Shown here: positions 28,433 through 53,165 of the stretch, one piece after another | Layout of the letters: each line of letters begins with the position of its first letter | How positions within the stretch are numbered: the first letter of the stretch is position 1 | DNA from: a virus | Taxonomy: Duplodnaviria; Caudoviricetes | Virus record (IMG/VR): IMGVR_UViG_3300018430_000021 | Location: 227,103-291,102 of that record | Length of the DNA stretch: 64,000 nt | Direction: 5' to 3' (one strand) | The notes under the pieces: model-generated | What the model saw: the letters and a program-made list of their open reading frames with translations, nothing else | Databases searched by the model: none | Told to the model about the DNA's origin: nothing | Made by a program: the position numbers and the translations under genes

Positions 28433-28517
28433 TGGCCAAGGTGGGATTCGAACCCACACGCCCTTTCGGACCGATGCTTCTAAGGCACCGTTGTCTCGCC
28501 AGTTCCATCACTCGGCC
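28433..28517 (-). tRNA. tRNA-Leu(TAG)
   Basis: Cloverleaf, loop CTTAGAA, long variable arm, A73. Confidence 0.9.
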
Positions 28518-28523
28518 ATTTAG

Positions 28524-28612
28524 TCTGCTGGGTGGGAATCGAACCCACAAGCCATTAAGGCGGAAGCATCTGAGTCTTCTGTGTCTACCATAAACTATTC
28601 CACCACCAGCGG
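28524..28612 (-). tRNA. tRNA-Leu(CAG), enlarged D-loop
   Basis: Loop CTCAGAT, long variable arm, TTCGA T-loop. Confidence 0.8.
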
Positions 28613-28622
28613 ATAATTGTAG

Positions 28623-28707
28623 CGGAAGCGGAAGGGCTCGAACCTTCAAGCAGATTTCTCCACGGCACTTTAGCAAAGTGCTGGCTTACCTATTAGCCTA
28701 CGCTTCC
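28623..28707 (-). tRNA. tRNA-Ser(GCT)
   Basis: Loop TTGCTAA, long variable arm, G73. Confidence 0.9.
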
Positions 28708-28716
28708 AAAATTTTA

Positions 28717-28798
28717 TCCTTAGGGTGGGACTCGAACCCACATGCCTTTCGGCCGCGGCTTTTGAGACCGCTGCGTATACCAATTCCGCCACCTAAGG
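28717..28798 (-). tRNA. tRNA-Leu(CAA)
   Basis: Loop CTCAAAA. Confidence 0.9.
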
Positions 28799-28801
28799 TT
28801 A

Positions 28802-28884
28802 TCGTCAGAGCGGGACTCGAACCCGTACGTCCTGAGGACACTGGCCTCTCATGCCAGCGCGTCTACCAATTCCGCCACCTGACG
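28802..28884 (-). tRNA. tRNA-Leu(GAG)
   Basis: Loop ATGAGAG. Confidence 0.9.
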
Positions 28885-28892
28885 TTAGTTTA

Positions 28893-28974
28893 TCGGTACG
28901 GGGAGACTCGCACTCCCAATCCCTTTCGGGCACGGACCTCTCAAGCCCGCATGTATACATTCCATCACATACCG
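28893..28974 (-). tRNA. tRNA-Leu(GAG), atypical T-loop
   Basis: Loop TTGAGAG; T-loop TGCGAGT. Confidence 0.8.
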
Positions 28975-28982
28975 TTATATTA

Positions 28983-29072
28983 TCGGTCTGAAGGGACTCG
29001 AACCCCCAATCCGTGCTTATCTCGGCCACCGGGTTTAAGCCGATGCTGTATTCCAATTCCAATCACAGACCG
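28983..29072 (-). tRNA. tRNA-Leu(TAA)
   Basis: Loop CTTAAAC. Confidence 0.9.
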
Positions 29073-29078
29073 CTATAG

Positions 29079-29151
29079 CAGGAGTACCAGGATTCGAACC
29101 CAGACCAGTGGACTTGGAAACCACTATGCTAGCCATTACAAACATACTCCT
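29079..29151 (-). tRNA. tRNA-Trp(CCA)
   Basis: Loop TTCCAAG, A1-U72, G73. Confidence 0.85.
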
Positions 29152-29188
29152 AAATAAAAAATTAAGGCTCCCATTGTGTGGGAACCTT
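29152..29188 (-). terminator. attenuator terminator of the Leu/Ser/Trp tRNA operon
   Basis: AAGGTTCCCA-CACAA-TGGGAGCCTT followed by AATTTTTTATTT, directly before tRNA-Trp. Confidence 0.8.
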
Positions 29189-29217
29189 ATAAACTTTCAT
29201 ACGATTAAAAAATCGAA

Positions 29218-29304
29218 CTACTTAGTTCCCACTAGACTACGACGCAATAACCAGCTGAGGAGCAGGCTACTGAGTAGGAGGAGTGTCAAACTAAGTGTCT
29301 TCAT
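29218..29304 (-). CDS. leader peptide MKTLSLTLLLLSSLLLSWLLRRSLVGTK
   Basis: RBS AAAGG; 12 Leu using all six codons, 5 Ser all AGY, 1 Trp; too short for the ORF track. Confidence 0.85.
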   Translation of the reverse strand: MKTLSLTLLLLSSLLLSWLLRRSLVGTK

Positions 29305-30281
29305 TTTTAAACCTTTTATATTATATATAAGAAATTTTTTGTTGTTTTTGTTTTTACGTTGTAAATATAGCAAATAATTTTTCTTTTGTAAACCCCTATG
29401 GGTAAATTTTTTTCTCGAGCGGAAGTTTCAGCTTATCGGAAATATCGTTATACATTAACGGCAATTCTTTTAATGTATGACTTTCAATCTCTCCGTCTAC
29501 AGCTTCAAGAAATTCATCAATAACGGGTTTAAGGTGATAAATTGTTACCGGCCAGTTACGGCCTTCACGATTCTGTCCCCATTCATGAAAAACTACATCT
29601 ATAGAAAACGTAGTAAAATACATCCAGTGATTAACCCCGAAACAAACCATTTGCGGGCACGGTTGGCCATAGCCATATTTCTTCTGGACATTTTTAATTG
29701 CATCGTAAAATTTTCGATTATCTGTAATACCTTTAATCTTATAGTTAATGGTATACTTATATTGCCAATCGAAAATATATTCAGGTTCATTATGCATCTG
29801 ATTCAACCTTTTTAGGTGTTCCCCATTTCTTATTCCATTCGGATTCAAGCATCTTGTCATCGTAATCGATATTTCCGTCTTCGTCGATACAATGTGTCGT
29901 ATAAGTAACCGTCACATCTCGACCTACATAGAATGTTCTTTCACAATGACTGCATTCAATCTTGTCTTCATCGGACAATTCCCAAGAATCCGTCTGGACC
30001 GCACCGCAATAAGGACAGACCGCCTCTTCGGTATTGGCATTAAAATAACTGATCGATTTATCTTCAAACTGCATCTGGTTTACCTTGACCTTCTGACATA
30101 AGTGCGGCATGATTTGCCGCATTATATTTTTTCAATGTTCTAAGATTAAAGATACACCCGTCTTCACCTTTTCGGTTAGTAGTGAATCTTTCATCATCGG
30201 TGTCCCATCCGAAAATGCCGCAAATCATGCATCCTTCTTCAGAGTCATAATCAGTAAACGGACATTTATTACAACGCATAA

Positions 30282-30824
30282 TTATTTCCTGGTAATAAAT
30301 TCGTTATATTCCTGTAAAGTTGACTTGCTGTCTGATTTTTCCGGCTCATCACCGATGAAATAATCAATAATATGTTTCGGAATCGTACAGACAAAAATAT
30401 TGCCGACCCATATAATAATTTTTAACGGCAATAAAATGAACATAGCACCTGAACAACAAATAATGCCATATGAATAAAACGTAAATAACAATAAATCTTT
30501 ACGGTCGTTAATTTTGATTTCGTTATAACTACAACCGTAGTTATAATAATTTGACATCTTAACAATCGACGATTCACCGTTTAACATAGCGATAAAGAAT
30601 GCAAAACCGAAACAGCATAATGCCGACCATGCATAAAGAGCCAGTTGTACAGTAAAATTATCCGACCACAGTTCTTTATATGCTACAAGATTACCGATAA
30701 CACTGCCTACCCAGCAAATCATGGAAAAAATAACTTTACCGAAGTAAGTGCTATTTTCATGGTTGTTTATGTATGAATATAGAACGTAAAGCTGCAGCTT
30801 CTTAATCATTGTTATCCTCGCCAA
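30282..30824 (-). CDS. multi-pass membrane protein (paralogue family with 33916, 34572, 40427, possibly 55210)
   Basis: Several hydrophobic helices, IPxxIxDYxxG, C-terminal LxEY/FNxFL. Confidence 0.65.
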   Translation of the reverse strand: MARITMIKKLQLYVLYSYINNHENSTYFGKVIFSMICWVGSVIGNLVAYKELWSDNFTVQLALYAWSALCCFGFAFFIAMLNGESSIVKMSNYYNYGCSYNEIKINDRKDLLLFTFYSYGIICCSGAMFILLPLKIIIWVGNIFVCTIPKHIIDYFIGDEPEKSDSKSTLQEYNEFITRK

Positions 30825-31357
30825 ATTTTACCCATGTCTTTTCATAAGCTTCGGGATGCTCAAGAATATAATCGAGATCCTCGTTTACAATATCCGGTAA
30901 TACCTTAAGATTCTTAAACTTATAGGTACCGCAATCACCGTCAAAGTTCGGTTCTTCTTCCAGAATCAAATCGAACATATTGTAATCGTCTACCGTGACG
31001 ATACTTCTACGGAACTGTTCATGAAGATGAGCATACAGTTTTGCAGCCGCAATCAGGTCTTCGCTTACGTACATTCCATAACGGGTCCACCACTGCGGTT
31101 CAATAGGATGTTGTCTTTTGTCGACGAATAAAATGATATAATGCATGTTAGAAATATAATAGTTTTTACAAGACTTGTCAACCCTTTTTAATAAATAAGA
31201 AAGGTTTACAAACGCGGTACGTAATGCCGCAGTACGGGTCAGAAAAATTCCGGAAAGGTTTTCCTCTTAAAAAACCCATAGCGACTGAACATGAAGTGCC
31301 ATATTGGTTGGCTATATTGGTCGAAATCTGACATCATTCTATTAAAAGGAAAACTAC

Positions 31358-32149
31358 ATGATTAAAAAAGACATAACAGCAAAAGAGGCCAATATTATCG
31401 GAGCCTGCTCAAAAAATATCCGACAATTCTGTAAGTACACAAAGATCCTCACCGAAGAGGGAACAAGTACATTCAAGCCCTACAAATTCCAAAAAGAATT
31501 ACTTGACAAGTGGATTTCGACCATGGAAGAAAAACAACACATGGGAAAACGAAACCATCTGGTAAAAACCGTAAGGCAATGCGGTATTACAACAGCTTTG
31601 GCTGTTTATGCCCTCTGGTATGCGATATTTAATCCGGATAAATGTATCGGTATTCTGGCACCAAAAGAAGCACAGTCATGTGAAATCTTGTACAGAATAA
31701 AAGACATCTATAATAATCTTCCGGATTTTTTAAAACCGAAAACATTAACAAATAACAAGCAAGTAATACGATTTGAAAACAAGACACAAATCTTCGCTTG
31801 TGCCGCACATTCAACAAGTATACGGGGAAAATCTGTCGATTTAATGATTATCGACGATTTCGCGCATATGAGTGACAATCTGGCAGAAGACTTTATGATG
31901 TGTGTATTTCCTACACAAGCATCTCGCGCATACGCCCAGATGATTATCGTATCTACACCAACAACTAAATCACACCCTTTTTATAAAATCTATGAAAAGG
32001 CATCCAATAAAATGAATTCATTTAATATTACCGATATTCCATGGAACTGCATCAAACGCAGAAACGCTGAATGGAAAAAGAGAATAATTCGCGAATGCGG
32101 TATAGACTTCTTCAATAGCGAATTTTCCGGTAAATTTAAAGAAGAATAA
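31358..32149 (+). CDS. T4 gp17-like terminase large subunit ATPase domain only (degenerate)
   Basis: PYKFQKE, RQCGITT (cf. RQxGKT), IRGKS, IIDDFAH (cf. DEFAF), IIVSTP; no nuclease domain. Confidence 0.75.
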   Translation: MIKKDITAKEANIIGACSKNIRQFCKYTKILTEEGTSTFKPYKFQKELLDKWISTMEEKQHMGKRNHLVKTVRQCGITTALAVYALWYAIFNPDKCIGILAPKEAQSCEILYRIKDIYNNLPDFLKPKTLTNNKQVIRFENKTQIFACAAHSTSIRGKSVDLMIIDDFAHMSDNLAEDFMMCVFPTQASRAYAQMIIVSTPTTKSHPFYKIYEKASNKMNSFNITDIPWNCIKRRNAEWKKRIIRECGIDFFNSEFSGKFKEE

Positions 32150-32175
32150 AAAGGCGGGCACAAAGCCCGCTATTT

Positions 32176-33912: not shown

Positions 33913-33915
33913 ATA

Positions 33916-35150: not shown

Positions 35151-35151
35151 T

Positions 35152-38221: not shown

Positions 38222-38259
38222 AATAAAAATCTCCGTTTTTATTATTTATAACGGAGACT

Positions 38260-39508: not shown

Positions 39509-40260
39509 TATTCCTCCTCGGTTTCATGTTTCTTTACGGCAACACCAATATTAATAAATTTCTGTCCAATCGCATCTACAGCTTTTTCCCACTTTGCTTC
39601 TCGTTCAATACAGAAAAGTGCATAGTTACGTGTTTCTGCGTTTTCACGTAATTCTGTAGCAAGCTTAAGTGCACCTCTGGCCATCTGTAAACGAGTAGCC
39701 CACAAATCACGTTCAGCAAGAAGTTGACAATGATTTACAGACCAATAATCGGGAAGCACGCCTTCATCATATTGGGTTTCATATTCTCGAATCATAAAAT
39801 CTCCTTAAGCTATATAAAACAATATAAAAAAGAGTTGACGTTCTGTCAACCCCTTTTAATTAACCGGCAATCCAACCATACACTAGTATGATTACTACCG
39901 CGGCAATAAGCATAACCCACATTCCATGAGTAAACCCGCGGACATAGGCACTGATTTCTTTACTCTTCTCGTCTAACACTTTCACCTGCCGTAATCGGAG
40001 TAATTGTATACTTTTCGTTTTCGTCACGCCAGCGTTTCTTTAAACGCTTGAGATTGGTATCTTCTTCCTTTCGAATACCGGAAACCGTGTTTCCATTGGT
40101 AAACCAAACCAGATAATAATAAACCTTTTCGAATTTACGCTTAGGTTTCTTCTTAGGCTCGGAAAGACCCATAGATTCAGAAAGAGCGTTAGCCGCTTCT
40201 TCCAATACGCTCAACGGGCGTTTTACTTGATAACTTGCCATTTATTTTTCCTTTTATTTA

Positions 40261-40381: not shown

Positions 40382-43300
40382 AATACCTAATATAGAAAAA
40401 GAGTTGACTCTCGTCAACCCTTTTTATTACTTCAATATCGTATCGAACTGCGATGAAAGTTCCTTGCTTGACTTTTCCTTGACAGGATCCGGGAAAAGAC
40501 AATTAGAAATGCCGTCGATAATAATATTACATATACCAACAATAATCATAATTGGTAAAGCAACAACCATAATACCGCAAGACATCAAGTTAATAAACAA
40601 CAATATTGAAACCTTGAAAATATATCGTTTTTCTTCAGGAGACAGACTATCATATTTCGTTCTTTGAGAAAAGTTATACTTATTCTTGAATCCGAGACTG
40701 AGTAATGCCGTACTCCAGAATACAATATGTAAACTTGCCCATGGAATAGTAATATGATTAAAACCGTCAGACAATATCCAAATAAAACAAACAAGTACCC
40801 CTACAACTTCCGCAAGAACGAATAAAATATAAAGTCCTGCTGCAACTGTAAGATCAGATCCAGCATTACTCAAGCCGGAATCAAAGAAAAACTTCATTGT
40901 AAATTCTTGATACTTACGAAACATATTTACTCCTCGGGTTCAAGCGTACCACATGCATAACAACGTTCATGACAAACCGGACAGCTATAGGTATATTCAA
41001 ATTCATTCATACCTGTCTGAATATACTCACACTTATATTTCGGAACGTTAAATTCTGTTTCACATTTATTACATCGAAACTTAAGCTTTGTCGGCTGCTT
41101 GGTAATTTCAGCTTCGCCGACAACAGTTGTTGGTTTCTTTTCGACAGGTCCAAGACAGGTTATAGATTTGATGGCCACAAAATGCTTATACTTACTTTTT
41201 GCGAAATCAATAATTGCCTTGGTCAATGCATCGCCAAGCAGGCTTGATTCGAAAATTTCTTCAGCATAATTATCATCCCAGTCATCAAAACCCATATAAC
41301 CGTCATAGGTCTGATAATGAATGTTTATCTTATACCTTTGTTTCATATTACTTCTTCTTAGCCGCCTTCTTAGCTGCTTTCTTGGCTTCGCGTTCGGCCT
41401 GCTTTGCAGCCAACTTAGCTTCGCGTTCAGCTTCCTTCTTGGCCTTTTCGGCGAGCTTCGCTTCATACTTCTTGATAACCTGCAAACGGCCCTTGAGGGT
41501 AGAATGCTTACGCCTATCATCCATATCATACAGGTCACGCAATACGTCATGATAATCATCTGAATTATCCTGAGTATACTGTCTCAGTTCCAAGCCTGCA
41601 CGAAGAATATCAATAAACGCATTAAAATTCTTCGGGTCAAACTGCTCCATGATAAACTGCGTCTGCGGAGTAGTATAGAAATGCCTTGTATCTTCCTTGT
41701 TGGCACAGAAACGGTTAAAGCCGTAAGTGACTTCAAGCTTGTTCGCCTTCGCATGCTTCACGAAATGCCCAGGATTCGGACAGGACTTATACACATGCAA
41801 ATAAAACTGGTCTTCGCCTTTCTGGAGAATAATCGCATAGTCGTCACGAACCGGATTATAGTCGTTGCCGAGTCGCTTCATCGCTTCTTCACGAGATTCC
41901 TTCTTGCTTTCTTCAATAATTTCGAAACCGTATTCCTTAACGACATTTTTGATCGCATTGAATTCGTCTTCCGTAAAACGAATTTCGGTCGCATAGACCT
42001 TATTGTATGCACCGAAAACATCATAAATTTTCTGGTCACCGGTACCGTAAAGGTCCTGATAGAACGACTTTACCTTATCTTCGCGAAACATGGAAGGGTT
42101 AATCTTTACCGCTTCGTTAAGTTCGTTAAGACATTCCTTTGCGTAATCTTCTGTAATCAATGCGCCCATTATAAGCTCCTTTTTGTTTATAATATAGAAA
42201 ATGGATTGACTTTTGTCAACCCATAATGTTCCTATCTATTATAAGTGCTTTCCATTAAAAGATACATATTATAATTACCTATGTGCCATTTAATTTGTTT
42301 AATAATATTTTCTTCTGTGATTTTGACCTTATAACGACCTTTCGGATAATCATTAGTTAATTTCACGATTTCACCGGTTTTATCAAAATCGGCTGTCATA
42401 ATAGTTCCTAATAATATGGGTGTAAGGATAGAACACGAATCTTCATAATCCTCGAAATAACAACATGGATAAATACTACGACATATAGTTTTAAACGCTT
42501 CTCTATTCATTGATATAAAACCTATTAATTATGTGTAATCATTCATAACGCAGTTTGTATTATTATCCGGTGTATCAGTATCTAGCTTGTTACCGCCTTT
42601 AATACTACAACCACAACATCTTTGATAAACGGCGTTTTTAATAAGCGGCATATCTGCTTTCATCGGTACATAAAGACCATGTGCCTTATAGTTTTCTTTA
42701 CAGAATGTTTGTCTTTCCCACTTATGTAATATATCAAAATTATCGTAATTTTCAGAACTTTTGTCTCCCCAATGAGCACAAAATAGTTCAAGAGCGTCTC
42801 TTTCAGACGAGCAAATATAATGTTTAGGTGTAAAATCAAGACATTCGCTCACGCTAACGATATATTCTTTAGAATTAAATACATCAATAATATTTGTATG
42901 AATAAGCGGCGGTCCAATAAACGTATTAATAAGATACGGAAGATAAATCTCAAAATAAATTCGCGGACAATCGACAAACGGAACAGGATGTGACCTAAGA
43001 CCAATTCCTATATAGTCGTCACATACGTTTTCAAGATAAACACCGTCATTGTCATATCGGAATCCATTAAAATATCCAATATCCGGCGGATCGTTTACGA
43101 ATTTTCTACCAATACCTGCCCATCGGGTAGCGGTAGTTTCGATAACGTTCCTGACATATTTTTCGATAGCAATAGCCGACTGGCCTACCAGCTCTTCCGG
43201 AAATTTATTTTTACTCGGGTCTTTTAACCACAAGTAAGAATCAATAAAAAGCTTAAGAGCTTTAAACGGGTCGTTTTTATACTCAACCGTAAAATCTTCA

Positions 43301-43400
43301 AGCTTATCTATCTTCTTACACAAATGACGATTACGATTATATTTATTTTCCATTTGCATAATATAACAAAAGGGTAGACTTTCGTCAACCCTTTATTTAG

Positions 43401-43472
43401 TCCCAAGGCCGGAACTCGAATCCGAACAAACAGAATCACAATCTGCTGTGCTACCAATTACACCACCGCGGG
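43401..43472 (-). tRNA. tRNA-His(GTG) with A73
   Basis: Loop TTGTGAT; encoded -1/73 are T/A rather than G/C. Confidence 0.85.
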
Positions 43473-43487
43473 GATGAAAAATTTTAG

Positions 43488-43560
43488 AGCCCTATGCCGG
43501 GTTCGAACCGGCGCCACCTGCTTGGAAGGCAGAAATGCTAAGCCACTACACCAATAGGAC
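43488..43560 (-). tRNA. tRNA-Gly(TCC)
   Basis: Loop CTTCCAA, U73. Confidence 0.9.
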
Positions 43561-43569
43561 ATATTTTAG

Positions 43570-43643
43570 AGCCCTAGACGGAATTCGAATCCGTAAACCT
43601 TCTCCATGGCAAGGAGACATTCTACCAGTTGAACTACTAGGAC
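43570..43643 (-). tRNA. tRNA-Gly(GCC)
   Basis: Loop TTGCCAT, U73. Confidence 0.9.
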
Positions 43644-43650
43644 ATTTTAG

Positions 43651-43723
43651 AGCAATAGATGGGACTCGGACCCACAACCTATTCCATGGCAAGGAATCGC
43701 TCTACCAGTTGAGCTACTACTGC
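43651..43723 (-). tRNA. tRNA-Gly(GCC)
   Basis: Loop TTGCCAT, U73. Confidence 0.9.
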
Positions 43724-43867
43724 ATAAATGACAGCTTTACCAAAAAGGACTTTTCCGTTTTAACTGCCGAAGGTCTCTCAGTCATTTCTATGGCAGACTG
43801 ATTAGGGCCGCCGGTTTTCTTCTTCCCATCCCTCGTACGAAAGCCGGCAAACATCGGATGCATTTCG

Positions 43868-43940
43868 TGCCACTACCTGGACTCGAACCAGGACCCGCTG
43901 ATTAAGAGTCAGCTCGACTAGGCCATTATCATATAGAGGC
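43868..43940 (-). tRNA. tRNA-Lys(CTT)
   Basis: Loop CTCTTAA. Confidence 0.85.
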
Positions 43941-43952
43941 AAAAATTTTTAG

Positions 43953-44043
43953 TGGACTCGACGGGATTCGAACCCGTATGCGGTGGCTTCCTTGCGTACA
44001 GCCTCCTGGTAATCCGGTTATTCACTCTTTAGCCTACGTGCCC
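43953..44043 (-). ncRNA. tRNA-like RNA with Ala-type acceptor (G3:U70, A73) and no clear anticodon
   Basis: GGGCACG/CGAGTCC-A acceptor, normal T-arm, central arm capped by a GCAA tetraloop. Confidence 0.6.
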
Positions 44044-44053
44044 ATAATTTTCG

Positions 44054-44126
44054 TACCCCAGGAAGGACTCGAACCTTCAACCCACTGATTAAGAGTCAGC
44101 TGCGCTACCAATTGCGCCACTGAGGC
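44054..44126 (-). tRNA. tRNA-Lys(CTT)
   Basis: Loop CTCTTAA. Confidence 0.9.
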
Positions 44127-44253
44127 ATAAATGAAGGTTTTTGATTTTGTGCAGAAGCTACCTACAAACTCCAGGAACTCAATTATTTCAATTCGCCGAG
44201 CTGACGAATAACTACCCATGTTTTTGGTAGGTCAAAGTAGTCGCAGACCATAG

Positions 44254-44333
44254 TACATCAGACAGGGATCGAACCTGCATTTTCAGCTCCAGTTACGGTT
44301 ACAAGATTCGTAGTCTTGCTCGGCTACTGATGT
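44254..44333 (-). tRNA. D-armless tRNA-Arg(ACG)-like
   Basis: Perfect 7-bp acceptor, CAAGA-CTACGAA-TCTTG anticodon arm, T-arm; only 8 nt in place of the D-arm and a 23-nt variable region. Confidence 0.65.
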
Positions 44334-44341
44334 ATAATTCG

Positions 44342-44416
44342 CGGGATCGAAGGGACTTGAACCCTCAACTTTCAGATCGACAATCTGACGCTCTAACCAA
44401 ATTGAACTACGACCCC
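44342..44416 (-). tRNA. tRNA-Asp(GTC)
   Basis: Loop TTGTCGA, G73. Confidence 0.9.
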
Positions 44417-44419
44417 AAA

Positions 44420-45187
44420 TTATTCATATTTACCAATTAAATTTTTATTAGAACTAAAATGTCTTCTTTTTGTATTAGATTTAAAAATTGGTATATATTT
44501 TTTAAATCGCACATAAATTGCATTTTTTAAAACATGTAATTCATTTGCAAAATCTTCAAGTTTATAGTAATTTCCTGAATGATATTTGTCCCATAATTCC
44601 CTAGATAATTTCAAAGATTCATTATATCTTGTAATTGTAAATGTTGTTTTATGTTTTTTATGTTTTTTATGTTTTTTTACACCATATACAATTTTGTTTG
44701 ATTCACCATGAAAAAGGTTTCGACCTTCAATCCAGAAATCTTCTAATGGTTTTTCTTTAAACTTCTTAGATTCTCCAGTATTACGATTTGTATACCATTT
44801 AGTTCCAAACTGTGAATTTTTATTACCTTGTTGATTCTTACTTGTTATTTTACTTATCGTTTTTGCAAACTCCATGCGTAATGCTTCATATGCACGAGAA
44901 TTTATATAACGATGTTTTTCTTTAGTCGTTTGCCCTTGCATTCGCCAAAGTGCACATAACATTTTATTTCTTTCAATAGTTCCTTTATCATACATTTTAA
45001 CAAGTAACCAATGACAGATAAAATGTTCACGTGCAGTTAATCTAACAAGATTTTCATTATCGTTTGTACCTCCTAATGATTTTGGTTGAATATGATGTTT
45101 TTCATAATAACCTACATATCTGTTCCCATTTTCTGTTTCCCTTTTTGCTTTTTCAATTATCTTATAATATATAGCTTTATAATTCAT
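44420..45187 (-). CDS. free-standing HNH homing endonuclease inside the tRNA operon
   Basis: YEKHHIQPKSLGG..D..NLVRLTAREHFICHWLL; AT-rich. Confidence 0.85.
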   Translation of the reverse strand: MNYKAIYYKIIEKAKRETENGNRYVGYYEKHHIQPKSLGGTNDNENLVRLTAREHFICHWLLVKMYDKGTIERNKMLCALWRMQGQTTKEKHRYINSRAYEALRMEFAKTISKITSKNQQGNKNSQFGTKWYTNRNTGESKKFKEKPLEDFWIEGRNLFHGESNKIVYGVKKHKKHKKHKTTFTITRYNESLKLSRELWDKYHSGNYYKLEDFANELHVLKNAIYVRFKKYIPIFKSNTKRRHFSSNKNLIGKYE

Positions 45188-45245
45188 ATATTATATATAA
45201 TTTTTTCGTTTTCCGAACCTGTCAAATATAATTAGACAGACTTAG

Positions 45246-45316
45246 CGGTCTCAACGGGTCACGATCCCGTACCTCCAGCGTGACAAGCTGGTGTCCATCC
45301 ATTAAACGATGAGACC
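45246..45316 (-). tRNA. tRNA-Asp(GTC), atypical T-loop
   Basis: Loop TTGTCAC, G73; T-loop ATCGTGA. Confidence 0.8.
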
Positions 45317-45352
45317 AAAATAAAAAAGATTCCTGTGAGCGACACAGGAATC
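45317..45352 (-). terminator. attenuator terminator of the Asp/Arg/Lys/Gly/His tRNA operon
   Basis: GATTCCTGTG-TCGCT-CACAGGAATC followed by TTTTTTATTTT. Confidence 0.85.
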
Positions 45353-45378
45353 AATCTAAAACTTTTTACAGTTAAAAA

Positions 45379-45480
45379 CTAGATGACCCTGTGCTTGTGT
45401 CGATCCTTATCATGCTTACCGAAACCTCGTCCGTCGCGGCGAGTCTTGCAATCATGAGTGTCAACTACAAACTTAGTCAT
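45379..45480 (-). CDS. leader peptide MTKFVVDTHDCKTRRDGRGFGKHDKDRHKHRVI
   Basis: RBS AAAGGA; 5 Asp, 4 His, 5 Lys (all AAG), 5 Arg (4 CGN), 3 Gly. Confidence 0.85.
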   Translation of the reverse strand: MTKFVVDTHDCKTRRDGRGFGKHDKDRHKHRVI

Positions 45481-45530
45481 TTCGTTTTTCCTTTCTATTA
45501 TATATAAAAATTTTTTTCCTGTTTTCGCAA

Positions 45531-45657
45531 AATAAACAGCGAGCAGTAACTTGTGGAAATAAGAGTTGGACTCGAACCAACGATCTTTGCATTGCTGCAA
45601 CGCTCTAACCAACTGAGCTATCTCATTGATTATAGGAACCGCTTGTGCTGTTCTATT
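45531..45657 (-). ncRNA. anticodon-less tRNA-like RNA closed by the GCA-N6-GUUCCUAU module
   Basis: D- and T-arms intact; anticodon arm is TTGCA-GCAA-TGCAA; outer stem carries the module. Confidence 0.7.
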
Positions 45658-46906
45658 GTGTTTTAACGTTGTTAAATATAGTAAAGTTTTTTCCTTTTGT
45701 AAACCCTATTTTTAAAAAATTTTTTAAGTTCTGTATTTCCTAAAGTTTATTTAATGCTATTTCAGTATCAAGTCCCATTACACGAAGCCTAATCTTGGCC
45801 GGATCTTTCAACTTCAGGATGTCTTCGATTATATCCAAACTTTTTGCTATGAAAATTGGCATACACCAGATTTGAGACTTCGATTTATAATCTTCATACA
45901 GAATTAACTGCCAGATAACGTTATCAGATGCCAATCCCGTTGCATAAATCCCATCGTTAATGTTTTTCGGATATAAGTATAAATCTCCAGACTCATTAAT
46001 GATTCTCTGGAGAACTTCCATCTTGGCGAACGCACGTTTTACATTGTTTTTTGTCATAGCACCTTGTCCAGCATAATTTCCAGTTTCATATTTTCATATT
46101 TGGCCTTGAGACGGTCAAACGTTTTGCACTTGTGAATTTCTGGAATTAACTTTAACAATAAGTTCTTTTCTTCACTGTATTTAATTACCAAATCATTTCC
46201 AAGTTCATATTTATTGGTTACATCTTGAAACCGGATATAATCAGAGTAAACATGCATTTCAATATTATTAAACTTACGGAATGTAGCATAGTTATGACGA
46301 TAGTCAAGGGCAAAATTTTCCTTGGCCAATAACTTATCTACTTTTTCTTGAAAACGTGATAACATATTTTATAAAATAGAAAAAAGGTTGACTTTCGTCA
46401 ACCCTTTAATATTTCCAGGAATTAAATTTAGATTTTCTCATTTTCTTTTTTAAGTGCATTTCCGAGTTTTTCGATGTCATTGACAAATAGCTGAACAATT
46501 TCATCTACAGTTCCAAGTGGAACCATGCCATTATCAGATTTCAACTTGAATAGCTTATCTTTCAGCTCATCTGACACAAATTCGGTCCAGACGTGTTTTG
46601 GAAAATTTCCAATATTTTCTTCATTAGTTATATCTTCCAATACTTTGTTCATTATTTAATCTCTTTTACTTGAACCGTGGCATCTATTTCACCAAGAAAT
46701 AACTCATTCATTGATGCACTATAATATGACTTACTTTTTACACAGTAAGACATCTTACTCTTTGCTGAGCGTAAATCAGCAAAATGTGTAGCTTGGCTTA
46801 AATCAGTTACCCAACTAACATAACCCTTTTTAGAACCCCAATAATAGACTATACCATCAACAGTTCTACAAAGAATCCATGTTTTTAATTTCGCATTGAA
46901 CATTAC

Positions 46907-49765: not shown

Positions 49766-49829
49766 TGTTATTTTTCCTTTTTCTTTAAATATAAAAAAAG
49801 GATTGACTTTCGTCAACCCTTTAATATAG

Positions 49830-49904: not shown

Positions 49905-49909
49905 ATTAG

Positions 49910-49983
49910 TGGATCCAGTGGTATTCGAAACCACAACCTCCCGCTTGCAGGGCGGGTGCTCTGCCAAATTGAGCTATGAACCC
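49910..49983 (-). tRNA. tRNA-Ala(TGC), C33
   Basis: Loop CCTGCAA, G3:U70. Confidence 0.9.
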
Positions 49984-49990
49984 ATGTTAG

Positions 49991-50063
49991 TAGCGGCGTC
50001 GGGAATCGAACCCGAATGCCAGGATTGAAGGTCCCGTGAACTAAGCCGTTATTCTACGTCGCC
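49991..50063 (-). tRNA. tRNA-Glu(TTC), C33
   Basis: Loop CCTTCAA. Confidence 0.85.
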
Positions 50064-50073
50064 ATAATTTTAG

Positions 50074-50146
50074 TAGTCCTATACAGATTCGAACTGTAGT
50101 AACTTGGCTGAGAACCAAGTGGCCTTGACCGCTAGCCGATAGAACC
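50074..50146 (-). tRNA. tRNA-Glu(CTC)
   Basis: Loop TTCTCAG. Confidence 0.9.
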
Positions 50147-50153
50147 ATATTAG

Positions 50154-50228
50154 TGCCACCGACAGGGGTCGAACCTGTGACGCGAAGATCTTCGGTCTTC
50201 CGCTCTACCAAAACTGAGCTACAGTGGC
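50154..50228 (-). tRNA. tRNA-Phe(GAA), C33
   Basis: Loop CCGAAGA. Confidence 0.85.
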
Positions 50229-50240
50229 ATATATTTTTTA

Positions 50241-50315
50241 TGGACCGTAGGAGGCTCGAACTCCTGACCCCCAGAATGCAAATCTGGTGCTCTACCAAAA
50301 CTGAGCTAACAGCCC
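50241..50315 (-). tRNA. tRNA-Ala(TGC)
   Basis: Loop TTTGCAT, G3:U70. Confidence 0.9.
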
Positions 50316-50320
50316 GAAAA

Positions 50321-50448
50321 TAAAACTGACCTTACTCATCTCAACGCGTACTATTGACTTTCGGTAAGCGCATACGGGATTCGAACCCGTGACCAGCGGC
50401 CTTCACACCGCCTGTTCTACCGCCGAACAAAATGCGTTATCAGTTTTA
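50321..50448 (-). ncRNA. tRNA-like core (about 50366-50438, irregular anticodon loop) inside a longer closing stem
   Basis: D- and T-arms present; loop region TGTGAAGG; flanked by TAAAACTGA/TCAGTTTTA. Confidence 0.55.
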
Positions 50449-50449
50449 G

Positions 50450-50523
50450 TGGACACATATGGGATTCGAACCCATGACGTTTTCCCTGCCAGGGAAACAT
50501 TCTACCAACTGAATTAATGGCCC
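50450..50523 (-). tRNA. tRNA-Ala(GGC)
   Basis: Loop CTGGCAG; acceptor with a 1-nt bulge. Confidence 0.85.
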
Positions 50524-50534
50524 ATGATTTTTAG

Positions 50535-50608
50535 TAGCGCTGTCGGGACTCGAACCCGAATTTCCGACTTGAAAGGCCGGTGAACTGAACCAGTTATTCG
50601 ACAGCGCC
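50535..50608 (-). tRNA. tRNA-Glu(TTC)
   Basis: Loop CTTTCAA. Confidence 0.9.
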
Positions 50609-50617
50609 GAAATTTAG

Positions 50618-50691
50618 TGGACACATATGGGATTCGAACCCATGACGTTCTGCGTGCAAAGCAGACATTCTACCAACTGAATTAATGGCCC
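50618..50691 (-). tRNA. tRNA-Ala(TGC)
   Basis: Loop TTTGCAC; body identical to 50450..50523 apart from the anticodon arm. Confidence 0.85.
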
Positions 50692-50700
50692 AAATGTTAG

Positions 50701-50773
50701 TACTCCGTCCCGGATTCGAACCGGGGTTATCCGATAGAAAGTCGGATGGCTTAAACCGCTGGCCGAACGGAGC
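50701..50773 (-). tRNA. tRNA-Glu(TTC)
   Basis: Loop CTTTCTA. Confidence 0.9.
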
Positions 50774-50784
50774 ATATTTTGTAG

Positions 50785-50857
50785 TGCCAAGTTCCGGAGT
50801 CGAACCGGATTTCTGGGATTTTCAGTCCCGTCCATTCCCACGATTGGATGCCATGGC
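50785..50857 (-). tRNA. tRNA-Phe(GAA), divergent
   Basis: Loop CTGAAAA; imperfect acceptor and D arms. Confidence 0.65.
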
Positions 50858-50858
50858 A

Positions 50859-50893
50859 TAAAAGAAAAGTTCCTGTGCTTGTGCACAGGAACC
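50859..50893 (-). terminator. attenuator terminator of the Ala/Glu/Phe tRNA operon
   Basis: GTTCCTGTGC-ACAA-GCACAGGAAC followed by TTTTCTTTT. Confidence 0.85.
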
Positions 50894-50917
50894 GTTTTTA
50901 AAACTCTAATCGGTTAA

Positions 50918-51031
50918 CTACCTGATCCTATGCACTGTATTTGAATCAAATGCTTCAAACGCTGCAGCTGCAAATTCAGCTGCGGCACGTTCTGCTGCAA
51001 AAAATTCATGTTCAAATACGTTCATAGTCAT
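50918..51031 (-). CDS. leader peptide MTMNVFEHEFFAAERAAAEFAAAAFEAFDSNTVHRIR
   Basis: RBS AAAGGT; 10 Ala, 6 Phe and 5 Glu out of 37 residues. Confidence 0.88.
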   Translation of the reverse strand: MTMNVFEHEFFAAERAAAEFAAAAFEAFDSNTVHRIR

Positions 51032-51215
51032 TTTGTTACCTTTTGTTATTATATATAAAAATTTTTTTCCTGTTTTTGCAAAAGTTTGATTCGGCCAATG
51101 GACTCCATCCAAAGTTTTACGTCAGCTCTGCACCGAATCATCTGATGCATCAGTTATGTGTTAAATATAGTAAAAAGTTGTTGGTTTGTAAACCCCTTTT
51201 TAAAATATTTTTTCG

Positions 51216-51327
51216 TGGGGAAGGCAGGATTCGAACCTACGACACACGCCTTGGAATGGAAATAGGAACGTTATATGCATTTCTACGAAACGTAAATACC
51301 GTTGCTCTACCACTGAGCTACTTCCCC
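51216..51327 (-). ncRNA. tRNA scaffold with the module inserted in the anticodon arm
   Basis: Canonical acceptor, D- and T-arms; about 40 extra nt containing GCATATAACGTTCCTAT. Confidence 0.7.
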
Positions 51328-51332
51328 GAGTG

Positions 51333-51644
51333 GTTAACGCGAAATGTATGAACTCATCTAAAAAATAATGCTTTTGATAGGAACATTCTTTGCGTTAACG
51401 ATGTTAAATATAGTAAAAAGTTGTTGGTTTGTCAACCCCTTTTTTAAAATATTTTTAGCCGGCGAGACTGGATTCGAACCAATAACCCAAAGTACCCTTT
51501 AGATAGGAAGCATTGGTGCTGAAAGCGAATACTAAATCTTAAACTTTTGCTCTACCGATTGAGCTACTCGCCGAGATGTTAACGCGAAATGTATAAACTG
51601 ATCGAAAATAATGTTTTTTTGATAGGAACATTCTTTGCGTTAAC
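51333..51644 (-). repeat. two copies (51333-51399, 51578-51644) of a ~67-nt hairpin RNA carrying the module, each after its own promoter
   Basis: GTTAACGC...GCGTTAAC ends; GCAAAGAATGTTCCTAT in both. Confidence 0.8.
51459..51573 (-). ncRNA. tRNA-Pro-like scaffold with the module inserted in the anticodon loop
   Basis: CGGCGAG/CTCGCCG acceptor; AAAGT/ACTTT stem around an insert with GCACCAATGCTTCCTAT. Confidence 0.7.
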
Positions 51645-51684
51645 AGGGTTAAATATAGCAAATTGCTTTGTGTTTGTCAACCGC

Positions 51685-53022
51685 TTATTGTAACTTTTTT
51701 TCCTCCTTCAAGTTTTTTCTGGAACGTTCTTTTTGTTCTTCAAGTAACTTGTTGAAACCGTCAAGGTCAACGGTAAGGTTATGCTGTTCACAAAGCATTT
51801 GTGTCAAGTCGACAGGAAAACCATAAGTATCATAAAGCTTGAAAGAATCAAAACCAGACAATACATTTCCATCCATCTTGGAAACAATATTGTTAAACTG
51901 CTTGATTCCGCTATCAAGGTTCTTCAAGAATCTTGATTCTTCATTCTTGATAACTTCAGTTACGAATTCTTGTCTTTCCTTAATTTCCGGATATACGTCA
52001 CCCATTACGTCGATAACAACCGGAACGAGCTTATACATAAACGGTTCATTGATATTTAACATCTTGCAGAACAAAGAACCTCTGCGAAGAAGCCTTCTCA
52101 ATACATATCCGCTTCCCTTATTAGAAGGCTGAAGTCCGTCAGTAATAGAAAATACAAGAGAACGAATATGGTCACTGATAACCCTGTGAGGCGTGCCGGA
52201 TTCATCATTCTTATATTCTACACCGCTAAGTTCAACAATCTTATCAATAAGTGGTTTAAACAAGTCGGTTTCATAATTACCGTTTGTATTCTGAAGAATA
52301 GAACAAATACGTTCAAATCCCATACCGGTGTCGATATTCTTCGTAGTCAACGGAATAAGCGTTCCATCAGAAAGTCTTTCTTTCTCCATGAATACAATAT
52401 TCCAGATTTCTACGTAACGGTCATTTTCACCGTTTACACCAAGGATAGGATCCTTGAATGTTTCTTCTTGAGTATTCAAATCGCCACGGTCATAATGAAT
52501 TTCAGAACAGGGACCGCATGGACCAGTATCACCCATTTCCCAGAAGTTATCTTTTTCTCCGAATCTCATAATACGGTCATCAGGTAGATTGGAAACTTCC
52601 TTCCAGATTTTCCAACTTTCATCATCGGTCTTATAAACAGAAACAAACAATCTTTCCTTAGGTAACTTCCATACTTTCGTTAAAAGCTCCCAAGACCAAG
52701 AAATAGATTCCTTTTTATAATAGTCATTGAAAGACCAGTTTCCAAGCATTTCAAAGAACGTATGATGATAGTTATCACGACCGACAACATCGAGGTCATT
52801 ATGCTTTCCAGATACACGTAAGCATTTCTGGCTGTTACATACACGTTTTAATCCTTGCGGGTTTTGACCAAAAAAGATTGGTTTAAACTGGTTCATTCCG
52901 GAATTCGTGAATAACAACGTCGGATCGTTATTGGGAATAACGGAAGAAGACTTGATAAACTGATGATTTTTTGACATAAAGAAATCAATAAAACTTTTTC
53001 TAATTTCGCTCGAGGTAAGCAT
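51685..53022 (-). CDS. alaS: alanyl-tRNA synthetase, aminoacylation and tRNA-recognition domains only; contains no Ala
   Basis: DPTLLFTNSGMNQFK, HHTFFEMLGNWSF, GPCGPCSEI, IDTGMGFER, GYVLRRLLRR, FKLYDTYGFP; ends before the editing domain. Confidence 0.95.
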   Translation of the reverse strand: MLTSSEIRKSFIDFFMSKNHQFIKSSSVIPNNDPTLLFTNSGMNQFKPIFFGQNPQGLKRVCNSQKCLRVSGKHNDLDVVGRDNYHHTFFEMLGNWSFNDYYKKESISWSWELLTKVWKLPKERLFVSVYKTDDESWKIWKEVSNLPDDRIMRFGEKDNFWEMGDTGPCGPCSEIHYDRGDLNTQEETFKDPILGVNGENDRYVEIWNIVFMEKERLSDGTLIPLTTKNIDTGMGFERICSILQNTNGNYETDLFKPLIDKIVELSGVEYKNDESGTPHRVISDHIRSLVFSITDGLQPSNKGSGYVLRRLLRRGSLFCKMLNINEPFMYKLVPVVIDVMGDVYPEIKERQEFVTEVIKNEESRFLKNLDSGIKQFNNIVSKMDGNVLSGFDSFKLYDTYGFPVDLTQMLCEQHNLTVDLDGFNKLLEEQKERSRKNLKEEKKLQ

Positions 53023-53035
53023 TTTTATTCTCCTA

Positions 53036-53070
53036 TAAAAATTAAAAGGTTCCTGTTGTGCACAGGAACC
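53036..53070 (-). terminator. terminator in the alaS leader
   Basis: GGTTCCTGT-GCACA-ACAGGAACC followed by TTTTAATTTTT, just before the alaS RBS. Confidence 0.8.
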
Positions 53071-53105
53071 AAAGTTTAGTTAATGAATATACCCATACAC
53101 ATATA

Positions 53106-53165
53106 TTATGTCATAATATATGCGGCTGCTGCGAAAATGCGAGTATTTAATATATTCATCGTCAT
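53106..53165 (-). CDS. alaS leader peptide MTMNILNTRIFAAAAYIMT
   Basis: GCA GCA GCC GCA run; MTMN start shared with the Ala/Glu/Phe leader. Confidence 0.8.
   Translation of the reverse strand: MTMNILNTRIFAAAAYIMT

What the first reader, a model, noticed from the sequence alone, without database searches (positions are those of the whole stretch)
28433..53165. Phage tRNA operons controlled by codon-matched leader-peptide attenuators (apparent tRNA-depletion sensors)
Seen in sequence: three separate tRNA operons and alaS share one layout: promoter, a 19-37 codon ORF, a hairpin with U-tract, then the genes. Each leader is built from the amino acids, and often the exact codons, that its own operon supplies. 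In the three tRNA operons the last leader codons are complementary to the 5' arm of the terminator. Established: ribosome-mediated attenuation (trp, his, leu, pheST) works this way, but for biosynthesis and synthetase genes. Inference: when specific charged tRNAs are lost (starvation or host anticodon nucleases), the ribosome stalls, the antiterminator forms and the phage transcribes the missing tRNAs. I do not know of this being described for tRNA arrays.
Basis: partly seen in the sequence, partly recalled or inferred. Interest (0 to 1): 0.97.

Follow-up and report, generated by a model that had tools for sequence, protein, structure and literature searches.

The report
Leader-peptide attenuators gating phage tRNA arrays
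In this giant animal-gut phage (probably of Fibrobacter), three blocks of tRNA genes and an alanyl-tRNA synthetase gene each sit behind a tiny translated test gene, written in the codons those tRNAs read and wired to a switchable transcription stop. The phage therefore probably makes them only when those codons are decoded slowly, a control I could not find described for tRNA genes.

Summary
On the minus strand, three tRNA arrays and alaS each have the same order of parts: a sigma-70-like promoter, a 19-37-codon ORF, then a hairpin with a U-tract. Each leader matches its own array and no other (18/27, 17/32 and 21/36 codons; p 1e-11 to 1e-5). The match holds at codon level: Ser is AGY or UCN according to the Ser tRNA present, Lys is AAG only, and 22 of 23 anticodons are represented. 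The last leader codons pair with the terminator's 5' arm (p 0.0007-0.008). A fifth unit lies outside the window. About 30 homologous units occur in related giant phages (IMG/VR), in eight leader classes. In all of them the leader composition tracks the array content, for example Cys and Gln codons appear where tRNA-Cys and tRNA-Gln were gained. One three-way compensatory change links antiterminator, 5' arm and 3' arm. The alaS leader is a shortened copy of the Ala/Glu/Phe leader, and the AlaRS it controls has no Ala codon at all. The best reading is ribosome-mediated attenuation that senses decoding speed, giving negative feedback on tRNA supply. Nothing has been tested experimentally, and the trigger (starvation, host shut-off or anticodon nucleases) is open. 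Nine full-text searches found no published account. This scan has noted the same design on other phage DNA.

The parts
29364..29392 (-). Unit 1: sigma-70-like promoter (TTTACA, 17 nt, TATATT, with TG before the -10)
   Evidence: sequence read
29319..29338 (-). Unit 1: AT-rich 20-nt motif just before the SD. It may be a second, -35-less promoter or a translation enhancer. The same motif precedes units 2 and 3 and the unit outside the window.
   Evidence: 4 copies against 0.37 expected; genome-wide
29218..29304 (-). Unit 1: leader ORF of 28 codons. It has 12 Leu codons using all six Leu codons, 5 Ser (all AGY) and 1 Trp. 18/27 codons are readable by the array's tRNAs.
29224..29232 (-). Unit 1: antiterminator arm (codons 25-27), which pairs over 9 bp with the terminator's 5' arm
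29163..29189 (-). Unit 1: intrinsic terminator (11-bp stem plus U-tract)
28432..29151 (-). Unit 1: tRNA array Trp-CCA, Leu-TAA, Leu-GAG x2, Leu-CAA, Ser-GCT, Leu-TAG
45675..45703 (-). Unit 2: sigma-70-like promoter
45554..45627 (-). Unit 2: tRNA-shaped element between promoter and leader, with a 4-nt loop in place of an anticodon loop (no anticodon). It may be a processing signal.
   Evidence: the same element is seen before the homologous leader in L114
45496..45515 (-). Unit 2: AT-rich motif before the SD
45379..45480 (-). Unit 2: leader ORF of 33 codons. It has Asp 5, Lys 5 (all AAG), His 4, Gly 3 and Arg 5 (four of them CGC/CGA). 17/32 codons match the ARAGORN-called tRNAs, or 21/32 if the Arg-ACG-like gene is counted.
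45384..45394 (-). Unit 2: antiterminator arm (codons 29-32)
45328..45352 (-). Unit 2: intrinsic terminator (10-bp stem plus U-tract)
43400..45316 (-). Unit 2: array Asp-GTC, [HNH endonuclease ORF 44420-45187], Asp-GTC, Arg-ACG-like gene without a D-arm (44254-44333), Lys-CTT x2, Gly-GCC x2, Gly-TCC, His-GTG
51164..51192 (-). Unit 3: sigma-70-like promoter
51047..51066 (-). Unit 3: AT-rich motif before the SD
50918..51031 (-). Unit 3: leader ORF of 37 codons, with Ala 10, Phe 6 and Glu 5. 21/36 codons match the array.
50926..50935 (-). Unit 3: antiterminator arm (codons 33-36), 10 bp including one G-U with the terminator's 5' arm
50868..50893 (-). Unit 3: intrinsic terminator (11-bp stem plus U-tract)
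49909..50857 (-). Unit 3: array. It begins with a weak Phe-GAA-like gene (50785-50857), followed by Glu-TTC x4, Ala-TGC x4, Ala-GGC, Phe-GAA, Glu-CTC and one odd tRNA.
53172..53200 (-). Unit 4: sigma-70-like promoter. Its -10 ends 6 nt before the leader ATG, so the leader mRNA is probably leaderless.
   Evidence: sequence read
53106..53165 (-). Unit 4: leader ORF of 19 codons with four consecutive Ala codons. It is a shortened relative of the unit 3 leader.
53092..53100 (-). Unit 4: candidate antiterminator arm, 6-14 nt after the stop. It is weak, with three G-U pairs.
   Evidence: p 0.07
53048..53070 (-). Unit 4: intrinsic terminator. Its stem is identical to that of Ala/Glu/Phe-class terminators in relatives.
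51685..53022 (-). Unit 4: alaS, a 445-aa catalytic-core AlaRS containing no Ala codon

Best explanation
These are ribosome-mediated (leader-peptide) transcription attenuators placed in front of tRNA gene arrays and of alaS.

Proposed mechanism:
- Host RNA polymerase starts at the promoter, and a ribosome translates the short leader.
- If every codon type in the leader is decoded quickly, the ribosome reaches the stop codon and covers the last 3-5 codons. The terminator's 5' arm is then free to pair with its 3' arm, and transcription ends before the tRNAs.
- If any charged tRNA on the leader's roster is scarce, the ribosome stalls upstream. The last codons stay exposed and pair with the 5' arm as an antiterminator, and polymerase reads into the array.

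The array supplies exactly the tRNAs that the leader tests. Each unit is therefore a multi-input (OR-gate) negative feedback loop that matches phage tRNA output to decoding demand. The alaS unit applies the same logic to charging. A run of Ala codons gates an AlaRS that has been purged of Ala, so it can still be made when Ala-tRNA is lacking.

Shown: the anatomy, the statistics, the conservation and the covariation. Inferred: translation of the leaders, the direction of the switch and its physiological trigger.
For: (1) Layout and coordinates are confirmed.

(2) Each leader matches its own array only. In five genomes or contigs, all 21 leaders score best on their own array, and the observed pairing is the unique best permutation.

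(3) The match holds at codon level:
- Ser is 5/5 AGY before Ser-GCT and 5/5 UCN before Ser-GGA/TGA/CGA.
- Lys is 5/5 AAG before Lys-CTT.
- 22 of 23 distinct anticodons have a cognate codon in their leader, against 12.1 expected (p 1e-6).
- The Arg CGC/CGA codons are explained by a cryptic Arg-ACG gene.

(4) The ORF end pairs with the terminator's 5' arm in units 1-3 and in the fifth unit (p 0.0007-0.008). The same is true in most of about 40 homologues from six classes with unrelated stem sequences. The stop-to-terminator distance is 25-38 nt throughout.

(5) There is a three-way compensatory change in class 1. One column changes in the antiterminator, the 5' arm and the 3' arm together. The antiterminator is 92.6% paired, against 18-53% when the partner is slid.

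(6) Leader composition follows array content within classes. Cys codons go from 0 to 2 where tRNA-Cys is present, and Gln from 0 to 2 or 3 where tRNA-Gln is present. New classes exist for Asn/Pro/Thr, Arg/Gln/Lys/Met/Ile and Tyr/Met/Ser arrays.

(7) Signs of translation: an SD-like AAAGG lies 6-10 nt before the ATG, as before 52% of phage ORFs. Variable sites number 29/14/12 at codon positions 3/1/2.

(8) The alaS leader is a trimmed copy of the unit 3 leader. Fibrobacter alaS genes have no such leader. The phage AlaRS has 0 Ala, against 28-35 in its nearest homologues.

(9) No phage RNA polymerase beta gene was found, and two sigma-family genes are present. Host polymerase, which obeys intrinsic terminators, is therefore the likely enzyme.
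Against: - No experiment exists, and no usable expression data. The RNA-library contigs that bridge leader, terminator and first tRNA cannot show starts, ends or levels, and may be DNA.
- At equilibrium the full-length transcripts fold into the terminator whatever the ribosome position, except in unit 1. The switch must therefore be kinetic.
- In truncated transcripts the antiterminator also forms without any ribosome. Untranslated leaders may therefore read through, unlike trp.
- A conserved region 1:2 helix is not established.
- The alaS antiterminator is weak (p 0.07), and that leader has no SD.
- The fifth leader of this genome carries an in-frame TAA where relatives have TCA.
- One array in the window (59898-63979) has a promoter but no leader.
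- Leaders also hold conserved non-cognate codons, such as two CGT in unit 1.
- Transcription-translation coupling in the presumed host is unknown.
Confidence: 0.8

Rival explanations
1. The sensor is the same but the output differs. The leaders are translated and do sense decoding speed, but they act mainly through transcript stability, processing or Rho-type polarity (for example by exposing or protecting the 5' end or the tRNA-like processing element) rather than through the intrinsic terminator switch.
For: Equilibrium folds favour the terminator regardless of ribosome position in units 2-4. A tRNA-shaped, anticodon-less element sits between promoter and leader in unit 2. The AT-rich motif before each SD has no established role.
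Against: The terminators are canonical. The antiterminator complementarity is significant and covaries with the terminator. The conserved stop-to-terminator spacing is what a terminator switch needs.
Confidence: 0.07
2. The short ORFs encode small functional peptides, or are not functional at all, and the hairpins are ordinary leaky terminators or processing stems. On this reading the match to the arrays reflects shared ancestry of cassettes, not regulation.
For: Leader peptides are conserved at the amino-acid level among relatives. Leader 1 looks like a hydrophobic signal or membrane peptide.
Against: Eight leader classes with unrelated sequences all mirror their own arrays. The synonymous codon choice follows the anticodons. 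Composition changes when tRNAs are gained or lost. The ORF ends are tied by pairing and covariation to the terminators. The alaS copy kept the Ala run and lost the Glu and Phe codons.
Confidence: 0.05
3. The switch is RNA-only. Uncharged or charged tRNAs, or another factor, bind the leader RNA directly (T-box-like), and the open reading frame is incidental.
For: Codons are by definition complementary to anticodons. T-boxes control aaRS genes in other bacteria (established knowledge).
Against: There is no T-box or other Rfam family match, even at permissive thresholds. Start codon, SD and frame are conserved, and variation is in excess at the third codon position. Up to 21 scattered cognate codons of several isotypes do not fit a single-specifier design.
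Confidence: 0.03

Closest known systems
Multivalent leader-peptide attenuators of enterobacterial amino-acid operons (ilvGMEDA leader with Ile/Leu/Val codons; thr leader with Thr/Ile codons; also trp, his, leu, pheA). Cited from established knowledge.
   Same: A promoter-proximal short ORF is enriched in regulatory codons of several kinds. An intrinsic terminator follows, and an antiterminator is masked by a ribosome that reaches the stop codon. Both sense charged-tRNA availability through decoding speed.
   Different: The regulated genes are tRNAs themselves (the sensed molecules), not biosynthetic enzymes, so the loop closes directly on the tRNA pool. Up to six or seven tRNA species are polled by one leader, with codon-level rostering. 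The system is in a phage, is repeated in parallel cassettes, and is rewritten as arrays change. There is no sequence or Rfam relationship to these attenuators.
The pheST attenuator (pheM leader) of E. coli, a leader-peptide attenuator of an aminoacyl-tRNA synthetase operon. Cited from established knowledge.
   Same: A run of cognate codons in a short leader gates an aaRS gene through a terminator. This is the direct analogue of the alaS unit.
   Different: Here the unit controls alaS. The leader is probably leaderless mRNA, is derived by trimming a tRNA-array leader, and controls an AlaRS with no Ala codon. The Fibrobacter homologues lack any such leader.
T-box riboswitches. Cited from established knowledge.
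   Same: They sense tRNA charging and switch a terminator/antiterminator pair upstream of translation-related genes.
   Different: A T-box binds one tRNA directly, without translation. No T-box match is found here, and the ORF features point to ribosome sensing.
Leaderless poly-Cys short ORFs acting as Cys-responsive attenuators in mycobacteria (bioRxiv 10.1101/834739, listed; abstract only read)
   Same: A short ORF that starts at, or next to, the transcript's 5' end carries a run of one codon type and controls downstream genes. This resembles the alaS leader.
   Different: The organism, the target genes and the codons differ. That the alaS leader mRNA is leaderless is inferred only from promoter spacing.
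Phage tRNA arrays as supply or counter-defence devices (literature on phage tRNAs compensating for host tRNA loss or anticodon nucleases). Recalled from memory, not checked here.
   Same: Large phage genomes carry many tRNAs thought to sustain translation late in infection.
   Different: I know of no description of a cis-acting demand sensor for such arrays, and nine searches found none.

Membership tests
Ribosome-mediated (leader-peptide) transcription attenuator | Short ORF close to the promoter with a plausible translation start | tested here: met
   ATG starts with an AAAGG-type SD 6-10 nt upstream in units 1-3. The same motif type precedes 52% of phage ORFs, against 9% of random sites. 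Unit 4 has no SD but starts 6 nt after the -10, so it is probably leaderless.
Ribosome-mediated (leader-peptide) transcription attenuator | Leader enriched in codons cognate to the regulated function | tested here: met
   own-array match p 1e-11 to 1e-5; 21/21 leaders score best on their own array; 22/23 anticodons are represented.
Ribosome-mediated (leader-peptide) transcription attenuator | Intrinsic terminator between the leader and the regulated genes | tested here: met
   9-11-bp GC-containing stems plus U-tracts, 25-38 nt after the stop codon.
Ribosome-mediated (leader-peptide) transcription attenuator | Alternative antiterminator that shares the terminator's 5' arm and is masked by a ribosome at the stop codon | tested here: met
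   Searches give significant complementarity and one three-way compensatory change. For the alaS unit the result is inconclusive.
Ribosome-mediated (leader-peptide) transcription attenuator | Upstream region 1 that pairs with region 2 when the leader is not translated (trp-type superattenuation) | tested here: inconclusive
   MFE folds pair the 5' and 3' halves of each ORF, and the consensus fold shows a weak helix of this kind. There is no clean covariation, and truncated transcripts still form the antiterminator without a ribosome.
Ribosome-mediated (leader-peptide) transcription attenuator | Read-through that rises when the cognate charged tRNA is limiting | not testable with these tools
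   Needs reporter assays, in vitro assays or Term-seq. The RNA-library contigs cannot show it.
T-box riboswitch | Conserved T-box fold with specifier loop and T-box sequence | tested here: not met
   No Rfam match at gathering or permissive thresholds.
Curated Rfam leader families (Leu, His, Thr, Trp and Phe leaders and others) | Match to the family covariance model | tested here: not met
   no hit in any leader region.

The most novel reading that the evidence does not exclude
The leaders are programmable multi-input sensors of decoding capacity, which the phage lineage rewrites whenever an array gains or loses a tRNA. Together with an AlaRS purged of alanine, they form a counter-defence or take-over circuit. 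That circuit switches on replacement tRNAs, and their charging, specifically when the host's tRNAs are cleaved, depleted or shut off during infection.
Probability: 0.3. Interest if true: 0.92.

Novelty: new variant of a known kind. Interest (0 to 1): 0.85.

Why it matters
Leader-peptide attenuation is a textbook mechanism, but it is known for amino-acid biosynthesis operons and a few synthetase operons. Here the regulated products are the tRNAs themselves, so the sensor and the product are the same molecules.

- It would be the first cis-acting demand control described for tRNA genes.
- It would explain how giant phages avoid over-producing, or producing at the wrong time, dozens of tRNAs.
- It would give a direct handle on an open question: why phages carry tRNA arrays, and when they use them.
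- The leaders are short and modular, and they read out the decoding speed of chosen codon sets. That makes them attractive natural biosensor parts.
- The co-evolution of leader text and array content is an unusually clean natural experiment in regulatory evolution.
- The Ala-free AlaRS shows the same selective logic acting on a protein sequence.

Tried and rejected
- **Close relatives.** Relatives of the alaS region were not found in GenBank phages (only 10% cover, alaS itself), nor by peptide patterns in IMG/VR. alaS is absent from three related giant phage records. The alaS unit therefore has no comparative support beyond its homology to unit 3.
- **Equilibrium ribosome-masking folds.** Folds of full-length leaders did not show a switch except in unit 1. 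I rejected this as a test because attenuation is kinetic, and used truncated transcripts instead.
- **RNA evidence.** Four animal-gut metatranscriptome runs hold contigs covering 45242-45688, 45266-45666, 50696-51118, 50715-51035 and 52819-53230. These are contigs of relatives, cannot show ends, strand or level, and may be DNA. They count neither for nor against.
- **Literature.** Nine full-text searches found no account of leader-peptide control of tRNA genes. One paper on 'cognate bias' in biosynthetic enzymes (PMC4209129) is the nearest precedent for the Ala-free AlaRS.
- **Chance.** Rejected on the statistics above.
- **Recoded stop codons.** Not pursued as an explanation for the in-frame TAA of the fifth leader: long ORFs are open under table 11, and relatives have TCA at that codon.

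Full report
**Setting.** The window is the last 64 kb of a 291-kb linear virus record with 38.7% G+C and 42-44 tRNA genes, rated about 70% complete. All features discussed lie on the minus strand. No RNA polymerase beta gene was found, but two sigma-70-family genes are present. The promoters are of the -35/-10 type. DNA runs that hold the stretch come from animal faeces and bovine gut. The closest AlaRS sequences by a wide margin are from Fibrobacter genomes, at 65-75% identity against 60% or less for others. Fibrobacter genes also use the same AAAGGA-type ribosome-binding site. I therefore infer a Fibrobacter-like host. This is an inference, not a demonstration.

**The observation.** ARAGORN and Rfam place the three arrays as follows:

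| Array | Coordinates | tRNAs |
|---|---|---|
| 1 | 28432-29151 | Trp, five Leu, Ser-GCT |
| 2 | 43400-45316 | two Asp, two Lys, three Gly, His |
| 3 | 49909-50773 | Glu, Ala, Phe |

A 445-aa class II AlaRS core lies at 51685-53022. Upstream of each I read the same order of parts:
- a sigma-70-like promoter;
- in the three tRNA units, a shared 20-nt AT-rich motif (four copies against 0.37 expected);
- an SD;
- an ATG ORF of 28, 33, 37 or 19 codons;
- 27-38 nt later, a 9-11-bp hairpin with a U-tract;
- the first tRNA, or alaS.

So the layout is real and at the stated coordinates.

**More than chance.** The background was the codon usage of 159 long phage ORFs. The table gives the share of leader codons readable by the unit's own array.

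| Unit | Codons matched | p |
|---|---|---|
| 1 | 18/27 | 1e-11 |
| 2 | 17/32 | 1e-5 |
| 3 | 21/36 | 3e-8 |

Every cross-comparison of a leader with another array is non-significant. The match reaches synonymous choice:
- All five Ser codons of leader 1 are AGY, and its array holds only Ser-GCT.
- All five Lys codons of leader 2 are AAG, and its array holds only Lys-CTT.
- The four CGC/CGA codons of leader 2 looked unmatched at first. Infernal then showed that 44254-44333 is a tRNA-like gene without a D-arm and with anticodon ACG.

In all, 22 of 23 distinct anticodons have at least one cognate codon in their own leader, against 12.1 expected (p about 1e-6). The leaders therefore act as rosters of their arrays. 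For alaS the leader holds four Ala codons in a row (p 1.3e-4 for such a run).

**An independent test inside the same genome.** It has the same promoter, AT-rich motif, SD, ORF and terminator. Its frame is rich in Cys, Tyr, Met and Ser, with 13/29 codons matched (p 2e-5). All five Ser codons are UCN, the opposite choice from leader 1. This copy carries an in-frame TAA where relatives have TCA, so it may be damaged or a variant.

**The RNA switch.** The terminators fold as predicted. I folded transcripts that end before the 3' arm. The last codons of the ORF then pair with the 5' arm in units 1-3 and in the fifth unit, and that pairing drops when a ribosome is placed at or near the stop codon. 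Against 3000 random genome windows, the duplex energies of -13 to -15 kcal/mol have p 0.0007-0.008 (combined 7e-7).

With the whole terminator present, equilibrium favours the terminator whatever the ribosome position, except in unit 1. The switch must therefore be kinetic, as in classical attenuators. Without a ribosome the antiterminator also forms in truncated transcripts, while full-length MFE structures pair the two halves of each ORF. Whether untranslated leaders terminate or read through is open. For alaS the candidate antiterminator lies 6-14 nt after the stop and is weak (p 0.07).

**Relatives.** A search of IMG/VR with the AT-rich motif plus SD was unspecific, but it caught about 30 homologous units. 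Two complete 416-424-kb phages with terminal repeats and a 165-kb fragment were then read across all their tRNA regions. Eight leader classes emerged:
- the four classes seen here;
- the Tyr/Cys/Met/Ser class;
- a class before Asn/Pro/Thr arrays;
- a class before Arg/Gln/Lys(/Met/Ile) arrays;
- a class before Tyr/Met/Ser arrays.

Each leader is composed of its array's amino acids. In every genome or contig, every leader scores best on its own array (21 of 21), and the observed assignment is the single best permutation.

Composition also follows content within a class:
- Class 1 leaders have two Cys codons exactly where the array holds tRNA-Cys, and none elsewhere.
- One class 1 leader has two Gln codons where the array gained tRNA-Gln.
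- Class 5 leaders have three Gln codons where Gln-CTG is in the array, and one in this genome, which lacks it.

There are exceptions. Ile codons occur in this genome's fifth leader without an Ile tRNA, and the Val correlation is only weak.

**Structure conservation.** Six classes have unrelated stem sequences. The ORF end is still complementary to its own terminator arm in most members, and the stop-to-terminator distance stays at 25-38 nt. In class 1, one position changes together in the antiterminator (GTGGG to GTAGG), the 5' arm and the 3' arm. On that alignment the antiterminator helix is 92.6% paired, against 18-53% when the partner is slid, and has one compensatory pair in three sequences. 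That is few independent events. The agreement across classes carries more weight.

**Signs of translation.** Variable sites in the ungapped class 1-3 ORF alignments number 29, 14 and 12 at codon positions 3, 1 and 2. Length differences among homologues are whole codons. SD-like motifs precede 52% of long phage ORFs, against 9% of random sites.

**The alaS unit.** alaS is absent from the three related phages, and Fibrobacter alaS genes have no leader. The alaS leader aligns with the unit 3 leader. They share the first four codons, the Phe-Ala-Ala core and the terminator stem, and the Glu/Phe-rich middle has been deleted. So a multivalent leader was cut down to an Ala run when it was joined to a captured synthetase gene.

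It has no Ala codon in 445, whereas its nearest homologues have 28-35 over the same span. It is the only long ORF in the genome without Ala. An enzyme that can be translated without Ala-tRNA, behind a leader that opens when Ala-tRNA is short, is coherent with the attenuation reading. It raises my confidence in unit 4 despite the weak antiterminator.

**Mechanism and rivals.** The best-supported mechanism is classical ribosome-mediated attenuation, acting as negative feedback on the tRNA pool. Any scarce roster tRNA stalls the ribosome, frees the antiterminator and opens the array. My confidence is 0.8. The rivals are:
- the same sensor acting through stability or processing;
- functional or meaningless peptides;
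- an RNA-only, T-box-like switch.

The last is contradicted by the absence of Rfam matches and by the reading-frame signals.

**Known or new.** Nine full-text searches found no description of leader-peptide attenuation of tRNA genes, in phages or in cells. The closest known systems are the multivalent ilv and thr attenuators and the pheST attenuator. The mechanism class is known, while the target and the roster design are new, so I rate it a new variant of a known kind. This scan has already noted the same design in other phage genomes and in this genome's neighbouring window. I did not test those other genomes. My conclusions rest on this genome and the loci fetched here.

**Limits.**
- Not every array is gated: 59898-63979 runs straight from a promoter.
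- Array contents rest on ARAGORN and Infernal calls and on standard wobble rules.
- The metatranscriptome contigs say nothing on regulation.

Noticed in passing
window 51685-53022 (-): The phage AlaRS (445 aa, catalytic core only) has no alanine codon at all. Its nearest homologues, from Fibrobacter at 65-68% identity, have 28-35 Ala over the same span. It is the only long ORF in the genome without Ala.
   Followed up: yes
genome C1:215215-215310 (-), 11.8 kb before the window start: A fifth leader-terminator unit lies before the Tyr/Cys/Met/Ser(UCN) array. Its ORF is interrupted by an in-frame TAA where relatives have TCA. This may be a nonsense variant that alters or disables the switch.
   Followed up: partly
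window 45554-45627 (-): A cloverleaf-shaped tRNA-like element has a four-base loop in place of the anticodon loop, so it has no anticodon. It lies between the promoter and leader 2, and the same thing is seen before the homologous leader in a relative. It may be an RNase P/Z processing signal.
   Followed up: partly
window 44254-44333 (-): An 80-nt tRNA-like gene has anticodon ACG (Arg), a very short D region and a long variable arm. ARAGORN missed it, and it is conserved in relatives at equivalent places.
   Followed up: partly
window 43950-44043 (-): A small element with a tRNA-like acceptor and T arm around a 50-nt insert gives a weak tmRNA-model match (20 bits, below the family threshold).
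   Followed up: no
window 51459-51573, 51216-51327, 59414-59526 (-): Three tRNA genes of 112-115 nt carry 33-41-nt insertions in or next to the anticodon arm. The first two have their own promoter and a long inverted repeat upstream. The 8-mer GTTCCTAT recurs in the insertion of two of them and a near-copy in the third, and upstream of the first two; it occurs 9 times in the window against 2.2 expected. Introns or a nuclease or processing site are possible.
   Followed up: partly
window 44420-45187 (-) and 63140-63865 (-): ORFs sit inside or beside tRNA arrays. The first has a weak HNH endonuclease match. The second is unexamined. Both look like homing-endonuclease insertions.
   Followed up: no
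window 59530-60980 (-): An ORF-poor stretch of about 1.4 kb follows a strong promoter (60953-60981). It contains a fourth copy of the AT-rich motif (60600-60619) with no leader ORF, and a 34-nt unit repeated 3.4 times (60132-60246). There is no Rfam match. It is probably non-coding RNA.
   Followed up: no
window 27402-27431, 39827-39857, 42201-42224, 46382-46407, 49797-49822, 61880-61909 (-): Recurrent cassettes in which a terminator hairpin contains the -35 hexamer (TTGACA/TTGACG) of the next promoter, with the -10 lying in or just after the U-tract.
   Followed up: no
window 59898-63979 (-): The Thr/Asn/Pro/Thr/Met/Val/Met array has a promoter (63087-63115) directly before tRNA-Asn and no leader, whereas a related phage has an Asn/Thr/Pro-rich leader before its equivalent array.
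   Followed up: partly
window 50785-50857 (-): The first gene after terminator 3 is a weak tRNA-like sequence (23.7 bits, below threshold) with a GAA (Phe) anticodon loop. A relative has a normal tRNA-Phe at this place.
   Followed up: no
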